DNA from: Trypanosoma brucei
Lineage: Eukaryota
Direction of reading: 5' to 3'
DNA length: 64,000 nt
Assembly: GCA_000002445.1 (NCBI GenBank)
Contig: CP000070.1
Coordinates: 1,728,001-1,792,000 of the forward strand
Of this stretch, positions 35,415-63,615 are shown piece by piece. Both the position numbers and the translations under genes were made by a program. The first letter of the stretch is position 1, and the number at the start of each line of letters is the position of its first letter. The notes under the pieces were generated by a model, which saw only the letters and a list, made by a program, of their open reading frames with translations, was not told where the DNA came from and did not search any database.

Positions 35415-36135
35415 ACGTGCTCCGGGTTCGATTTTTCCATAAGGGATTTGGGTAATGAAATGATGTATAGAAACCGCTTTAAATAGCGGTGTGTGCGTGT
35501 GTGTGTGGACGGACGGATGGTTGATGTTAGCATGTTCCAACGTACCAACGTGTGACGGAGGGCATGCAACAATATGAATATCTACGTAACCGCATGCTAA
35601 GTAATGCTTTGCTTGAAGTGACTTTTTGTCCCTTTTACAGTGTTGTGAGTGCTTTTAAATACCCAACGTGATTTTGAGACTGTAGTGTGGCGTGTGTGTA
35701 TTGTTTGAGGGAAGGAGGAAACTGTCTCTCTCCTGCATATGGATGTACATGTGCTTCAATTCCTGGCTCATTCTTTCACCAACAGCGTAGGAATGCACGT
35801 GGTTGACATGATGCGAACTGCGTGGCGCTGATGCCTGAATGCACAAAGCGGTTGGACTGAGCATCGTGCCAATACGTGGAAGCGGGATTATGCCGGGTAG
35901 ACATTTCGTGTAGACGATTGGGGTTCGATTTGCGGTGACTTGTAACATCCCGTCACTGACGTTATTCCTGACACGGAGAGTAAGGGAATTGCAGTGGCTG
36001 GGGAAGCACAGAAAAACATCTGCAACAGAGTTGTATAAGCCTAAAGCACCGCACGTTTCCACTTGCTCAAGAAGGGGACGAATTATATGAGCTGCGGGAG
36101 TGTTGCGGGGATTTGCCCGCGGTGATATGTACCTT
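35415..36135 (-). repeat. Left copy of a ~720-bp inverted repeat (partner at 62905-63615)
   Basis: The reverse complement of 35461-35640 matches 63401-63570 almost base-for-base (e.g. 'ccgctatttaaagc', 'catgctaacatcaaccatccgtccgtccacacacac'). The spurious ORFs 35655..36215(-) and 62973..63380(+) translate to ~95% identical peptides. Identity is roughly 90-95% with small indels. Confidence 0.8.
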
Positions 36136-37539
36136 TTCCACCCTTTCATTTCCAGCGTGGCAACCTCTTGATTCAGTGGCGCAGCAACCCCGGTGGTGGG
36201 GGAGTTTGAATTCAACCGCGCAAACTTTGGCGACGAGGCGTGACAATATGCCCTCAGGCTTGGGGAAGGGATCCCGACACGATCAGCATGCCCTTTGTGA
36301 ATTGAAGCCCATCGTCACTCCACTAGCGGGCAAGGCGCAGCACCGGTCGGTGATTCACGTCTGGACATCATCCTCACGCTTTCACCCACCGCTGTCGTTT
36401 CGTGCCCTGCTTTAACGCTAGCCCGTGCATGCAGATGCATCTTTTGGACGACGGTTATGTGTCGTGGTCCCTTCCAGAGCTACTGCGTCGTAGCGATGCC
36501 GCGGCCATACCATCGAAGCCTCTCCAGCCTTCATCGTAATCGCCCTGCTCTATAAGCCCATTCGCCGCAAAATGTAGTACCAGAAACGTGTCTGCGCCTC
36601 GTTCCTTCCCTGGCCAAATATCCGCAGCTGGGTTGCTCATTCGAGTTTCCCATGCGACCCTCTTCGTTTCCCCTCTTAATCACCATTGTTGAGGCATTAA
36701 TGGCGCAACTTGTGCTTCCCGTTCCTTAGCGTTCCCACCATAGGGGCTAACGTGTAGGGTAAATTTTTTGCTTTCAACGCGTTTTTCTTGGTTTAACCCC
36801 AACCTGTAAAGCGCGGGACCACCGACACTTTAACCCCGCAGGTCCCTCGTTTGATTGTCCTTTGGTGCTGATACCGTGGGTTCCATAGCGACCGCACGCC
36901 GTTTTTTTTTTATCTTCCGCACCTTCCACGCGGCAACAACATGTTACTGCGCATAACCTCGCCCGGTATTCTCGGCACTCACCCCAATGGTATTCGTCCG
37001 CAGGCGTCATATCCTTCCCCTTGGGCACAGGGCGAGCGCATCCGATAAGTTCGCTGCGGCATATGCCGGGCCCTTCCCCCACACCAAAGTTGACATTCTA
37101 CGTTTAACTCCTGCCGCAACACTCTTGCCACAGCATTGGCGGGCCAGCGTGGAGTAAGCCCGGAGCAGGCCGCTGCCCTCGCCGGCAAGCTTTTGATCCG
37201 CTTCTCCTCGGAGTCCCGATGTTAAGGCAGAATGTATTGATGTAAGCGTGTCTGCGCCGATGGGTTTTGACATTACCTTCCTACCCGGGGTGGTGGCTAT
37301 CCCGTGCGTGTTGGAATTATTTTTGGGACGAAAGAGAGCCTCAAGGTCCAAACACCCCCAGCCCAACTCTGATTTTTGATCTGCAGCTTTTCATTTTCAG
37401 CAGCCTTTTTAGCTCAACCGCCATCGCGACACCATCGGCGATTCGACGGCGCCTCCATCAACAATGCTCTGCCATCTCCACCTCGAAGGCAAGCCAGCGT
37501 CCACCTGGCGATGTGCAACAGCAATCTCAACTTTCGCAT

Positions 37540-38655
37540 TCCCTCACAATTTTGTCGTGGTCCACTGTATCGAATGCCTTCTCGTAGTCGACGGATACAG
37601 CACCCGTGCGAAATTGGTGCGTGGGACGGCGGAGGGCAGCCGGCGAGCGTAGGTGTCCAATGCGGATGGCGGAGCTCAATTTCTGTTCCAGGGCGTTGAT
37701 ATTATTATCTCTACCAATTTTCCTGCAGAGCTCGTCAACCTTGAGACGGAAATTCCTCCAGTCAGCTTTTAGCCATGCGTAGATGGGGTTTCGAGGCCGC
37801 GGGCAACTCAGTGCATCTGTTTCGTCTCCACCGATAACGTCGAAAAATATGTGATGGTGATCGGTATCGGGAGAATGCAGCGATGTCCACGTGGACACTG
37901 TGCAATTCCTTGACAGTGTCACATCAGGGCTGGACTCCCCGTGGTGGCGCGCGAACCCGGTGCACTCACCAGTGTTACAGACTAGAAACTGGTTGTCAAT
38001 TTACCACTGTGTGAGGGTTTCACCCTTGGTATTTGGCGGGCTCCCGCGATCCCATGCCAACTCGCGTGTGCATTAGCGTCTGCACCGATGAGAGCTGGGC
38101 ACCGTCAGTCGTCAGAAGCGTATCTAGGTCAGTTGCCGTGAAGGTGTGTTTTGGTGGGATGTATGCCGACGTGACGGTCAGCGCCGTTCCACATGTAAGG
38201 TGAATTGTTGCACGCACTTGTTCAATGCGACCAACAACGGCCATACCGGTCTCGACTGGCTGGCCCTCCCTCACTAGTATTGATACACCACCTCCTTTGC
38301 AGTTACGAGCTATTCCGTGATGTTGGTAGCCAGCAACGCTAAAGCAAGCCGCCTCTCCAGGCGTCATCCTTGTCTCGCTCAACAGACAAAAGGCGATCCG
38401 CTCATCAACAAGGGTTTTGTGGAGTGCTAATCTCTTTCCTTGAGATAGCCCGGCGCAGTTCCACAGCATCCCGCGCAACGACGGGCCGGGATTCTCTTCC
38501 ACATCACCGGACAGCAGCATCTTAGCGCGGATGATACTGCTGATGGCACGCTGGCACGTGCCCAGGGACCGACAAATGAAAAACGGTGTCCCAGCAAGAC
38601 GCTGCTGATCCCTGTGCTGTATGATGCCGTAGCCGAAGCAAAGCATTGTTCCCCA
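37540..38655 (-). mobile_element. 5'-truncated-diverged and 3'-truncated ingi (non-LTR retrotransposon) fragment carrying the APE endonuclease and the start of RT
   Basis: ORFs 38020..38766 and 37527..37922 are ~98% identical to the APE (60208..60951) and N-terminal RT (59367..60110) ORFs of the long ingi copy. Nucleotide identity begins at 37540 (= 59737) and is lost near 38655 (= 60843). Confidence 0.75.
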
Positions 38656-61650: not shown

Positions 61651-62904
61651 ACCCCCGAGGCGTTAGCATGCTTGGTTCTATCGATCATCTCTGTTTGTGC
61701 GCGTATGGTTTCCCCCTCCGTGTTTCGGTGAGGGCAGTGGATGGGGAGATGTCACTGAACAGCGTCGCTGTTGATTATTGTTGCTATGTTATTTTATTTT
61801 CCTAAGGCCACATTGTGGTGCCTAAATACCCGGGTTATCGTCACGCGCATTTATCATTTTTCTATTTAGCCTTTATAGCTGATCCTTCTTTCAAATACAT
61901 TTGCTTGTTCTAGTTTCATATATATATATATTGCAAATGGCAGCTTGGTGCACTTGTTCCGTTGTCGGGGTGATTATTTTCAGAGCGTATATACACCGCT
62001 TGTGGGTGATCGCGGTTTCAAGCCGGTTTACTTTTGTTTTTGAGGACATGTATTGGGGGTGTTACCACTTTTTTGTTCATTGACATTGTACACTTTTTTG
62101 TTTCGGTAAAAAGAAAAAAAACAATGACAGTGATATTTTTTTTTTTCGCTTACCTTCTATATATATACATATATATATATATATATACTTGTCGGTGATA
62201 TGTGTTTGTGTTTGGTGCTGATAATGCTTGCGCTGGGAGTTTCTTTTGTTGGCGTTTGTTTTCTCTGTAAATAAGATCGGCTTTCATTTCACCAATAGTC
62301 CTTGTAATATATCTTTTTTTTTCTTTTTTTTTCTAGGGGGCCATTAGTGCATGTAAGGAGCACTCTTAAGGGAACTTTTGTCAGCAGAATAATCAATGGT
62401 AAGTGTTTTACTTTGGCCATTGCGAGTGCGCTGGACTTTGGGAGCTGGTACTGATACTTCTGTCTTGACGGATTTAAAAAAAAGACAAAAAACTTCACAA
62501 CTATTTCCGAAAGAAAGTAAAGTTTATCCTCTCAAATCAAGTGCGGATCTGTCCCTTTGCACACGCGCTGGTTGACAATAGGTTGATGAGTGACATGTCT
62601 GATCACCTTGTGGTGCGGGTCTTTATTAATTGTCTTGCACTTTATTGATTCATCTGCGCTTTGGCGACTTAGGCGGAGTAGAGGATTGCCAATTCCGTCC
62701 CTTGGAATGGTTTACCGTCTTATTTTATTTTGTTAACCCAGTTGTCTTATGTGTATTCCTTTGTCGGTTGGTGCGAGCTGTGGGTGGGATGCCGATCGTT
62801 TTTTCTTCTGCAACGGCAGAGAGTAGTGCTGATGGATATCGGTAAAGGGTGTTTGCTGCGTCGGTGAAGTAAGTATATCAATAGAAAAGGTACGCATATA
62901 CTAA

Positions 62905-63615
62905 ACATATCACCGCGGGCAAATCCCCGCAACACTCCCGCAGCTCATATAATTCGTCCCCTTCTTGAGCAAGTGGAAACGTGCGGTGCTTTAGGCTTAT
63001 ACAACTCTGTTGCAGATGTTTTTCTGTGCTTCCCCAGCCACTGCAATTCCCTTACTCTCCGTGTCAGGAATAACGTCAGTGACGGGATGTTACAAGTCAC
63101 CGCAAATCGAACCCCAGTCTTCTACACGAAATGTCTACCCGGCATAATCCCGTTTCCACGTATTGGCACGATGCTCAGTCCAACCGCTTTGTGCATTCAG
63201 GCATCAGCGCCACGCAGTTCGCATCATGTCAACCACGTGCATTCCTACGCTGTTGGTGAAAGAATGAGCCAGGAATTGAAGCACATGTACATCCATATGC
63301 AGGAGAGAGACAGTTCCCTCCTTCCCTCAAACAATACACACACGCCACACTACAGTCTCAAAATCACGTTCAGCATTTAACAGCATACACGACACTGTAA
63401 AAGGGACAAAAAGTCACTTCAAGCAAAGCATTACTTAGCATGCGATTACGTAGATATTCATATTGTTGCATGCCCTCCGTCACACGTTGGTACGTTGGAA
63501 CATGCTAACATCAACCATCCGTCCGTCCACACACACACGCACACACCGCTATTTAAAGCAGTTTCTATACATCATTCCACTACCCAGATCCCTTATGGAA
63601 AAATAGAACAGCCAC
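62905..63615 (+). repeat. Right copy of the ~720-bp inverted repeat (partner at 35415-36135)
   Basis: See the left copy: 62905-62975 is the reverse complement of 36060-36132, and 63401-63615 is the reverse complement of 35415-35640. Confidence 0.8.

What the first reader, a model, noticed from the sequence alone, without database searches (positions are those of the whole stretch)
35415..63615. A ~720-bp inverted repeat brackets the whole 27-kb ingi/VSG block
Sequence 35415-36135 recurs reverse-complemented at 62905-63615 with about 90-95% identity. I checked several ~60-170-nt stretches by eye. The two copies flank exactly the block holding the ingi fragment, five VSGs and the long ingi. Both ingi copies have the same minus orientation, so the bracket is not explained by an inverted duplication of the ingi itself. 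A pair of inverted homologous arms around a VSG block is a possible substrate for inversion by homologous recombination. It could also mark the footprint of a segmental insertion into the core. The element encodes only a domain-less ~135-186-aa ORF.
Basis: seen in the sequence. Interest (0 to 1): 0.75.

Follow-up and report, generated by a model that had tools for sequence, protein, structure and literature searches.

The report
Inverted repeat from surface-gene family flanks
The 705-bp inverted repeat is real, but it is not a special bracket for the VSG block: its arms are two of at least seven copies of a non-coding module that follows or separates the Fam10/SGM1 metacyclic surface-protein genes of Trypanosoma brucei chromosome 7, two of which converge on the silent VSG/ingi cluster.

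Summary
The arms are 35426-36130 and 62905-63609, 705 nt, ungapped, with 17 mismatches (97.6%) and sharp ends.

The window is T. b. brucei TREU927 chromosome 7. The left arm starts 337 nt after the stop codon of a 264-aa gene, which I infer to be Tb927.7.6490 (SGM1.1). The right arm lies about 420 nt after the stop of a convergent 203-aa paralogue just beyond the window end. That gene is seen in T. b. gambiense and T. b. equiperdum.

The outer 316 nt of each arm recur five more times in the same locus. They lie between or beside the other Fam10/SGM1 genes. Only the two arms share the inner 389 nt.

The coding sequences are only 26-46% identical at protein level. Identity jumps from background to 94-100% exactly at the arm edges. 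Variant patterns are mosaic across copies and strains. This points to ongoing gene conversion, not to an insertion footprint or a mobile element.

The 27-kb VSG/ingi block sits in a convergent strand-switch region. It is most likely the published H3.V/base J-silenced "cSSR 7.7". Its orientation is the same in all three assemblies.

The arm ORF has no homologues and is probably spurious. Interest is modest.

The parts
34295..35089 (+). 264-aa Fam10 gene, inferred to be Tb927.7.6490 / SGM1.1. It has a signal peptide and an acidic tail, and is the last + strand gene before the block.
   Evidence: 100% identical to TREU927 XP_846272.1. It is a paralogue of the 203-, 227-, 235- and 268-aa genes. 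The gene order v-SNARE (Tb927.7.6440), Dus, DEX1-like, TsaD, 760 aa, 264 aa fits the published numbering. SGM1.1 = Tb927.7.6490 according to PMC8509897.
35090..35425 (+). Proximal 3' flank of SGM1.1. It is not shared with the right arm, but is partly shared with other family flanks.
   Evidence: 35185-35756 matches the 3' flank of the 268-aa SGM1.7 gene at 94%. 35303-35756 matches the 235->227 intergenic region at 97%.
35426..35741 (+). Left arm, outer part: the 316-nt Fam10 intergenic module.
   Evidence: Matches at 92-98% in five further places in gambiense and equiperdum. It carries 14 of the 17 arm mismatches.
35742..36130 (+). Left arm, inner part: a 389-nt extension shared only with the right arm.
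   Evidence: 99.2% identical between the arms. It is absent from all other module copies. It contains no Fam10 pseudogene.
36131..37535 (.). Unassigned G+C-rich spacer between the left arm and the ingi fragment.
   Evidence: No similarity to the right-hand spacer, to ingi or to Fam10. No Pfam hit on any open stretch.
37536..38663 (-). ingi 5' fragment.
   Evidence: Direct repeat of 59723-60851 at 97.9%. It encodes an ingi-type ORF with the DVEENPGP 2A-like motif.
40704..54885 (+). Cluster of five VSG genes or pseudogenes. The last one (53242-54885) is intact and is annotated as an atypical VSG in TREU927.
   Evidence: Pfam Trypan_glycop, VSG_B and Trypan_glycop_C hits. 53242-54885 is 100% identical to XP_846274.1.
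55700..61250 (-). Near full-length ingi retroposon. The ends given are approximate.
   Evidence: RVT_1, RNase_H and C2H2 zinc-finger hits on minus-strand ORFs. ORF layout. The ends were judged by eye.
61251..62904 (.). Unassigned, mostly A+T-rich spacer between ingi and the right arm.
   Evidence: No similarity to anything else in the window. No Pfam hit.
62905..63293 (-). Right arm, inner part: the 389-nt extension.
   Evidence: Reverse complement of 35742-36130 with 3 mismatches.
63294..63609 (-). Right arm, outer part: the 316-nt Fam10 intergenic module.
   Evidence: Reverse complement of 35426-35741. The variant tract at arm positions 219-239 is shared with the equiperdum copy upstream of the 235-aa gene.
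63610..64000 (-). Proximal 3' flank of the convergent 203-aa Fam10 gene (inferred Tb927.7.6550 / SGM1.2). Its stop codon lies about 27 nt beyond the window end.
   Evidence: L003 20685-21296 and L004 20669-21280 carry the 203-aa gene on the minus strand just past the window end. 63610-63828 is also copied upstream of the 235-aa gene.

Best explanation
The two arms are the innermost copies of a non-coding module that belongs to the Fam10/SGM1 surface-protein gene family of T. brucei chromosome 7.

Shown: two family members face each other across a convergent strand-switch region. They are the 264-aa gene on the + strand and the 203-aa gene on the minus strand. Each is followed, 337-420 nt after its stop codon, by the module in the same relative orientation. 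On the chromosome the two copies therefore read as an inverted repeat. The VSG/ingi cluster lies in the zone between them. The module's outer 316 nt also lie between the 235->227->203-aa tandem genes, upstream of the 235-aa gene, upstream of a repeat-bearing family member, and 3' of the 268-aa SGM1.7 gene.

Inferred with good support: the near-identity of the copies, next to coding regions that are only 26-46% identical, is kept up by repeated gene conversion among the copies, including exchange between the two arms across 27 kb.

Inferred, moderate support (about 0.4): the module lies mostly in the 3' UTR of the upstream family gene. It carries the shared signals (mRNA stability or translation control, and polyadenylation coupled to the next splice site) that give these genes their common metacyclic-stage expression. 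The arms would then be the 3' UTR and downstream regions of SGM1.1 and SGM1.2.

The repeat is therefore a by-product of gene-family layout and concerted evolution. It is not a device or a scar specific to the VSG block.
For: (1) The 203-aa gene just beyond the window end is a paralogue of the 264-aa gene (31% identity over 127 aa, E = 2e-23). The 227-, 235- and 268-aa genes are also paralogues. A whole-library phmmer search finds ten family representatives.

(2) Module copies in equiperdum and gambiense: L005/L006 at about 6800-7115, 8218-8545, 9596-9904 and 11030-11734; L008 at 10802-11369 and 16109-16651.

(3) The ends of homology differ by pair (35185, 35303, 35426 or 35433 on one side; 35741, 35756 or 36130 on the other). 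This fits segmental paralogy, not a discrete element.

(4) The identity profile of the SGM1.1 region against the SGM1.2 region is a step function: 12-56 matches per 100 nt outside the arm and 94-100 inside it.

(5) Variants are mosaic. The TREU927 left-arm extension is 99.5% identical to the equiperdum right arm but 97.7% to the equiperdum left arm. The tract at arm positions 457-493 reads GCT in TREU927-left and equiperdum-right, and AAC in the other four arms. The TREU927 right-arm tract at 219-239 equals the equiperdum copy upstream of the 235-aa gene. Informative sites give mutually incompatible groupings.

(6) Identification of the locus. The reverse primer published for rSGM1.7 (Tb927.7.6600) matches exactly inside the 268-aa gene (primer from PMC7007551 SI). 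The SI describes seven genes, sgm1.1-1.7, in chromosomal order, 19-42% similar, two of them with repeats.

(8) For the 3' UTR role. The five genes with a module copy 3' of the CDS (inferred Tb927.7.6490, 6550, 6560, 6570; 6600 primer-supported) are 11-23-fold higher in metacyclic clusters. Tb927.7.6590 is only 4-6-fold higher (PMC7007551 Dataset S1). SGM1.1 and SGM1.7 have no module upstream yet are top metacyclic markers.
Against: I could not measure genome-wide copy number, because no T. brucei genome search was available. Copies outside the Fam10 locus cannot be excluded.

The 389-nt extension is unique to the arms and its origin is unexplained.

The mosaic variants could partly reflect heterozygosity collapsed into consensus assemblies, or mis-assembly of a 705-nt repeat. 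As far as I recall, the gambiense chromosomes were scaffolded with TREU927 as a guide, so that assembly is not fully independent.

No poly(A) or splice-site mapping was examined, so placing the module in the 3' UTR is an inference from typical T. brucei UTR lengths.

The assignment of the 264-, 203-, 227- and 235-aa genes to Tb927.7.6490, 6550, 6560 and 6570 rests on gene order. Only SGM1.7 has support from a primer match, and the forward primer did not match within 2 mismatches.
Confidence: 0.8

Rival explanations
1. The arms are a working recombination pair. Crossovers between them invert the 27-kb VSG/ingi segment, so its orientation varies within or between populations.
For: The arms are 705 nt at 97.6% identity and in inverted orientation. 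Mosaic variants show the arms exchange sequence. The GCT/AAC tract looks swapped between the arms in TREU927 compared with equiperdum. That could result from an inversion followed by a re-inversion at a different crossover point.
Against: TREU927, gambiense DAL972 and equiperdum are collinear from 24.2 to 64.0 kb in the same orientation. Non-crossover gene conversion, together with exchange with the other five copies and with the homologous chromosome, explains the mosaics without any inversion.
Confidence: 0.1
2. The arms are the footprint of a segmental insertion. They would be either the terminal inverted repeats of a mobile or composite element that brought the VSG/ingi block into the core, or a duplication made during that insertion.
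For: The repeat encloses the whole non-core block. Its inner ends are sharp, and the 389-nt extension occurs only in these two copies.
Against: The outer 316 nt are native to the Fam10 locus and occur five more times without any VSG. There is no target-site duplication at the outer ends. Neither arm encodes a transposase or recombinase, and the arm ORF has no homologues. The arm orientation follows the orientation of the adjacent family genes. A one-ended repair event that copied module plus extension from one arm to the other is not excluded. That would be a repair scar, not an insertion footprint.
Confidence: 0.07
3. The repeat is one of the long inverted repeats of T. brucei that form hairpin RNA and feed the RNAi pathway. 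A transcript reading through the block would pair arm with arm.
For: T. brucei has siRNA-producing long inverted repeats. siRNAs rise at convergent regions when H3.V is lost (PMC3447711; PMC4721609). A read-through transcript from either side would contain both arms in complementary sense.
Against: This repeat is not among the seven inverted repeats listed for TREU927, which are all at least 99% identical and span 3.6-12 kb in total. No chromosome 7 convergent unit near this position is in their siRNA table. Normal transcripts from the two sides carry the same sense of the module, so they would not pair with each other. The 27-kb loop and the reported H3.V/base J termination make a hairpin transcript unlikely in wild type.
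Confidence: 0.05

Closest known systems
Fam10 / SGM1 (salivary gland metacyclic) surface-protein locus of T. brucei chromosome 7 (Jackson et al. 2013 cell-surface phylome; Vigneron et al. 2020, PMC7007551)
   Same: Same chromosome region and the same genes. There are seven paralogues 19-42% similar, two of them with long repeats, and SGM1.7 is supported by a primer match. The arms lie 3' of the first two family members.
   Different: The text I could read covers the proteins, their expression and the chromosomal order. I found no mention of the conserved 316-nt intergenic module, of the 705-nt inverted pair, or of gene conversion limited to the non-coding parts. The SI figure itself was not readable.
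H3.V / base J-controlled termination zone 'cSSR 7.7' with a silent VSG cluster (Reynolds et al. 2016, PMC4721609)
   Same: [quoted passage not shown] This matches the content and layout of the block between the arms.
   Different: I matched the locus by content and approximate position only, and that paper uses Lister 427 coordinates. It does not mention an inverted repeat around the cluster.
Long inverted repeats IR1-IR7 of TREU927 that yield siRNAs (Tschudi et al. 2012, PMC3447711)
   Same: Inverted repeats hundreds to thousands of bases long on megabase chromosomes. Their high identity is taken as a sign of homogenisation or selection.
   Different: Those are at least 99% identical with short loops. 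This one is 97.6% identical with a 26.8-kb loop, is not in their list, and has no siRNA evidence.
Concerted evolution of flanking and untranslated regions in trypanosome tandem gene families (general knowledge; stage control through 3' UTRs as in the procyclin genes)
   Same: Non-coding segments are shared at high identity among family members, and stage-specific expression is common to the family.
   Different: Here the coding regions are highly diverged while the module stays at 92-99% identity. Two of the copies are inverted across a 27-kb insertion of unrelated DNA.

Membership tests
Fam10/SGM1 locus non-coding module (as defined here) | Lies within a few hundred bases of a Fam10 coding sequence, in a fixed orientation relative to that gene | tested here: met
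   The left arm starts 337 nt after the 264-aa stop. The right arm starts about 420 nt after the 203-aa stop. Both have the same relative orientation. The other copies end 57-97 nt before the next family start codon.
Fam10/SGM1 locus non-coding module (as defined here) | Recurs at the other family members | tested here: met
   Five further copies at 92-98% identity in gambiense and equiperdum. This was not checked in TREU927 beyond the window.
Fam10/SGM1 gene family | The flanking genes are the published Fam10 genes | tested here: met
   The rSGM1.7 reverse primer matches exactly in the 268-aa paralogue. Gene order fits Tb927.7.6440-6600. The forward primer did not match. The remaining gene IDs are inferred from order.
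siRNA-producing long inverted repeats (Tschudi 2012) | Arms at least 99% identical with a short loop; listed as IR1-IR7 | tested here: not met
   97.6% identity and a 26,774-nt loop. It is absent from their Table 3.
siRNA-producing long inverted repeats (Tschudi 2012) | 22-25-nt small RNAs of both polarities map to the arms | not testable with these tools
   No read data were available. No nearby chromosome 7 entry appears in their convergent-unit table.
Transposon or composite element with terminal inverted repeats | Target-site duplication outside the arms, fixed element ends, and an encoded transposase | tested here: not met
   No duplication at the outer junctions. Homology ends vary among copies. 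The arm ORF has no homologue or domain.
ingi/RIME retroposon sequence | Nucleotide or protein similarity to ingi | tested here: not met
   No match between the arms and either ingi copy. The spacers have no tblastn match to ingi ORFs beyond the element edges.
Invertible DNA segment | Both orientations of the enclosed segment are found | tested here: inconclusive
   Only one orientation occurs in three assemblies. That is too few genomes, there are no population data, and the assemblies are not fully independent.
Convergent strand-switch region with H3.V/base J termination | Genes on either side point towards each other | tested here: met
   The + strand genes run from 20 to 35 kb. The 203-, 227- and 235-aa genes are on the minus strand just to the right.
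Convergent strand-switch region with H3.V/base J termination | H3.V and base J enrichment; de-repression when they are lost | not testable with these tools
   This is reported for a chromosome 7 cluster of matching content (PMC4721609). Identity with this locus is inferred.

The most novel reading that the evidence does not exclude
The arms may be an active crossover pair. On this reading the 27-kb silent VSG/ingi cassette has flipped and flipped back during T. brucei evolution. The tract that appears swapped between the arms in TREU927 compared with equiperdum would be the scar. Both orientations would then exist in natural populations. That would change which of the two converging transcription units reads into the archival VSGs when H3.V/base J termination fails, and it would allow a 705-bp-stem hairpin transcript.
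Probability: 0.1. Interest if true: 0.6.

Novelty: new member of a known kind. Interest (0 to 1): 0.3.

Why it matters
This removes a tempting but wrong reading, namely a dedicated bracket or insertion scar around an internal VSG cluster. [quoted passage not shown]

Two leads are useful. First, a 316-nt module is kept nearly identical beside seven very divergent genes that are switched on together in metacyclic parasites. That makes it a concrete candidate cis-element for metacyclic-specific expression, and it is easy to test with reporters. Second, the arms show that sequence exchange operates across 27 kb of silent VSG/ingi DNA at a transcription-termination zone. This bears on how archival VSGs in core regions take part in recombination.

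Neither lead would overturn current views.

Tried and rejected
- **Arm ORF (35655-36215, minus strand).** No Pfam domain and no homologue among 5.8 billion proteins. Rejected as a gene.
- **RNA genes.** Rfam at gathering threshold and tRNA scans of the whole window found nothing.
- **ingi or DIRE origin of the arms and spacers.** No blastn or tblastn signal.
- **Decayed Fam10 pseudogene in the 389-nt extension or the spacers.** No tblastn signal.
- **Pfam on ten open stretches of the spacers.** Nothing.
- **Exact-protein look-ups for TREU927 genes.** These failed because that genome is not in the contig index. I therefore reached the right-hand flank through gambiense and equiperdum orthologues.
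- **Direct look-up of a locus-derived protein.** I got round this with a cluster look-up.
- **T. equiperdum OVI contig (L007).** Too fragmentary to use.
- **Equiperdum sequence to the right of the 235-aa gene.** It contains a 100-N gap.
- **Tschudi et al. supplements.** They hold no gene IDs or a nearby chromosome 7 entry. Neither siRNA status nor the TREU927 coordinates of the window could be fixed.
- **A Fam10-like contig from another trypanosome (L010).** It has no module.

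
Full report
**Observation.** The inverted repeat is real. The repeat finder reports a single pair, 35426-36130 and 62905-63609, 705 nt, 26,774 nt apart. Self-BLASTN gives the same pair at 97.6% without gaps. A base-by-base comparison shows 17 mismatches and an immediate fall to random-level matching outside all four ends. Fourteen mismatches lie in the outer 316 nt and three in the inner 389 nt. The only other long self-match is a direct ingi repeat, 37536-38663 = 59723-60851 at 97.9%. 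Pfam confirms five VSG genes or pseudogenes on the + strand between 40.7 and 54.9 kb. It also confirms ingi reverse transcriptase, RNase H and zinc-finger ORFs on the minus strand. The identity is higher than estimated, and three of the four arm ends lie 5-11 nt inside the stated coordinates.

**Source of the window.** The 264-aa protein encoded at 34295-35089 and the 547-aa VSG at 53242-54885 are 100% identical to T. b. brucei TREU927 XP_846272.1 and XP_846274.1. The VSG differs at 47 residues from the Lister 427 allele. The window is therefore TREU927 chromosome 7. Genes run on the minus strand up to about 19 kb. From 20 to 35 kb they run on the + strand: v-SNARE-like, Dus, DEX1-like, TsaD/Kae1-like, a 760-aa gene and the 264-aa gene.

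**What lies beyond the window.** The TREU927 contig could not be fetched. I used the orthologous loci of T. b. equiperdum (CM010678.1: L001, L003, L005) and T. b. gambiense DAL972 (FN554970.1: L002, L004, L006, L008). Both are collinear with the window from 24.2 kb to 64.0 kb in the same orientation, and both contain both arms, both ingi copies and the VSGs. Immediately past the window end lies a 203-aa gene on the minus strand. It is a paralogue of the 264-aa gene (31% identity over the first 127 residues, E = 2e-23). Its stop codon is about 420 nt from the outer end of the right arm. The stop of the 264-aa gene is 337 nt from the outer end of the left arm. Each arm has the same orientation relative to its own gene. 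The repeat is inverted because the two paralogues converge.

**More copies.** Behind the 203-aa gene lie two more paralogues on the same strand, of 227 and 235 aa (29-46% identity among the four). The outer 316 nt of the arm (35426-35741) recur at three places: between 235 and 227, between 227 and 203, and upstream of 235. Identity is 92-98%. Further right in gambiense there are two more copies. One runs directly from the stop of a 268-aa paralogue (matching window 35185-35756 at 94%). The other lies upstream of a family member with a long 18-nt-repeat tail. That makes at least seven copies in one locus. The ends of homology differ from pair to pair. Only the two arms share the inner 389 nt (35742-36130). 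No family pseudogene is detectable in that extension or in the spacers. There is no target-site duplication.

**Which family.**
- A whole-library phmmer search with the 264-aa protein finds ten representatives.
- The literature identifies the locus. Vigneron et al. 2020 describe Fam10, renamed SGM1.1-1.7 in chromosomal order, as seven metacyclic-stage surface proteins. They are 19-42% similar, and two have repeats (PMC7007551).
- SGM1.7 is Tb927.7.6600, and SGM1.1 is Tb927.7.6490 (PMC8509897).
- Their reverse primer for recombinant SGM1.7 matches exactly inside the 268-aa gene. The forward primer did not match.
- The gene order in the window fits the numbering from the v-SNARE gene Tb927.7.6440 to 6490.
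- I therefore take the 264-, 203-, 227-, 235- and 268-aa genes to be SGM1.1, 1.2, 1.3, 1.4 and 1.7. All but the last are assigned by inference from order.

**The block between the arms.** Reynolds et al. [quoted passage not shown] It is marked by H3.V and base J and de-repressed when they are lost (PMC4721609). Its content and layout match this block, so I take it to be the same locus. This identification is an inference.

**Why the copies are so alike.**
- Alignment of the SGM1.1 region with the SGM1.2 region in equiperdum gives 12-56 matches per 100 nt through the coding region and proximal flank. It gives 94-100 inside the arm and background again after it. A duplication that aged uniformly would not look like this.
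- Variant sites form a mosaic. The extension of the TREU927 left arm is 99.5% identical to the equiperdum right arm but 97.7% identical to the equiperdum left arm.
- Arm positions 457-493 read GCT in TREU927-left and equiperdum-right, and AAC in the other four arms.
- Seven sites at 219-239 that set the TREU927 right arm apart are shared with the equiperdum copy upstream of the 235-aa gene.
- Two sites are shared by both equiperdum arms only, and one by both gambiense arms only.
- The informative sites support mutually incompatible groupings. Only the outermost 50 nt or so track position.
- The simplest reading is repeated gene conversion among the copies, including exchange between the arms across 27 kb, since the subspecies diverged.
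- Caveats: consensus assemblies of a diploid can mix alleles, and (from memory) the gambiense chromosomes were ordered with TREU927 as a guide.

**Likely function.** This part is inference. With intergenic distances of about 700 nt, a polypyrimidine tract 45-75 nt before each start codon, and typical T. brucei UTR lengths, most of the module should lie in the 3' UTR of the upstream gene.
- SGM1.1 and SGM1.7 have no module upstream but have one downstream. Both are among the top metacyclic markers.
- The five genes with a downstream module are 11-23-fold higher in metacyclic clusters. Tb927.7.6590 is 4-6-fold higher (PMC7007551 Dataset S1).
- This fits a shared 3' UTR control element kept uniform by conversion and selection.
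- The extension begins with a pyrimidine-rich stretch followed by AG (35760-35790). That could provide the downstream splice signal needed to polyadenylate the two terminal genes. I rate this functional part at about 0.4.

**Rivals.**
- *Inversion of the block by crossover between the arms.* This is physically possible, and the swapped tract is compatible with it. However, all three assemblies have the same orientation.
- *Insertion footprint or terminal repeats of a mobile element.* This is contradicted by the five extra copies away from any VSG, the variable ends, the lack of a target duplication and the lack of any enzyme gene.
- *siRNA-producing hairpin.* This is not supported. The repeat is absent from the seven inverted repeats catalogued in TREU927, and no nearby chromosome 7 entry appears in the convergent-unit table (PMC3447711). 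No read data could be examined.
- *The arm ORF.* It differs in length between the arms (186 versus 135 aa), uses TTG or GTG starts and has no homologues. I regard it as spurious.

**Unexplained.**
- The origin of the 389-nt extension.
- The nature of the two unrelated spacers, 36131-37535 and about 61251-62904.
- The genome-wide copy number of the module.

**Verdict.** The repeat is genuine and well bounded, with an ordinary explanation: paralogous gene-family flanks in convergent orientation, homogenised by gene conversion, with a silent VSG/ingi cluster lodged in the termination zone between them. The genes and the silent cluster are already described. I did not find the conserved module or the inverted pair mentioned in the papers I could read. 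I rate it a new member of a known kind, interest 0.3.

Noticed in passing
window 37536-38663 and 59723-60851: The two ingi copies form a 1.13-kb direct repeat at 97.9% that encloses all five VSGs. This is a substrate for deletion of the VSG cluster by homologous recombination, as opposed to inversion.
   Followed up: partly
L008 13526-19844 and 20231-20807; L008 16117-19784 versus L006 3441-7111: In gambiense, to the right of the 235-aa gene, there are kilobase arrays of an 18-nt repeat that is open in several frames on both strands. Two roughly 3.7-kb blocks (module plus repeats) lie in inverted orientation at 90% identity, about 0.4 kb apart. These may be the repeat tails of SGM1.5 and SGM1.6, and possibly the 'Tb927_07_IR4' siRNA locus of Tschudi et al. 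I could not check the coordinates. The gambiense gene calls of 1080 and 918 aa here look like readings of the repeat in an arbitrary frame.
   Followed up: partly
L005 6581-7115 (equiperdum); window 63610-63828: The region upstream of the 235-aa gene carries a copy of the 203-aa gene's proximal 3' flank plus the module (98.7%). The 235- and 203-aa proteins share an identical 21-residue signal peptide although they are only 39-46% identical overall. This indicates patchwork exchange inside the family.
   Followed up: partly
L010 (contig CAEQ01001771.1, assembly GCA_000227395.2; T. congolense from memory): A 264-aa Fam10-like gene is followed by a 1599-aa gene with a Fam10-like N-terminus and a long repeat tail. 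Four more representatives share the signal peptide MGPGSRFALLFLALM. The family is therefore not restricted to T. brucei, despite the 'T. brucei spp.-specific protein' label on the gambiense entry. No module-like DNA is present there.
   Followed up: partly
window 38867-39990: Just after the ingi fragment, the sequence resembles the 3' ends and downstream flanks of the VSGs in the cluster (59-83% identity to 42219-42622, 45061-46099, 51987-52651 and 54898-55333). This suggests a sixth VSG that was truncated by the ingi insertion.
   Followed up: no
window 45237-45392; 44883-45274 versus 48274-48664: A (TAA)52 run lies upstream of the third VSG, and a 392-nt direct repeat (96.7%) links the 3' ends of two VSG cassettes. 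These look like the usual cassette-flank repeats.
   Followed up: no
window 30788-30877: A perfect (TG)45 microsatellite lies between the TsaD-like gene and the 760-aa gene. Its length differs among the three subspecies assemblies, since the alignments break there.
   Followed up: no
window 36131-37535 and about 61251-62904: The two spacers just inside the arms are unrelated to each other, to ingi, to VSGs and to Fam10. They have no Pfam signal. The left one is G+C-rich and the right one mostly A+T-rich.
   Followed up: partly
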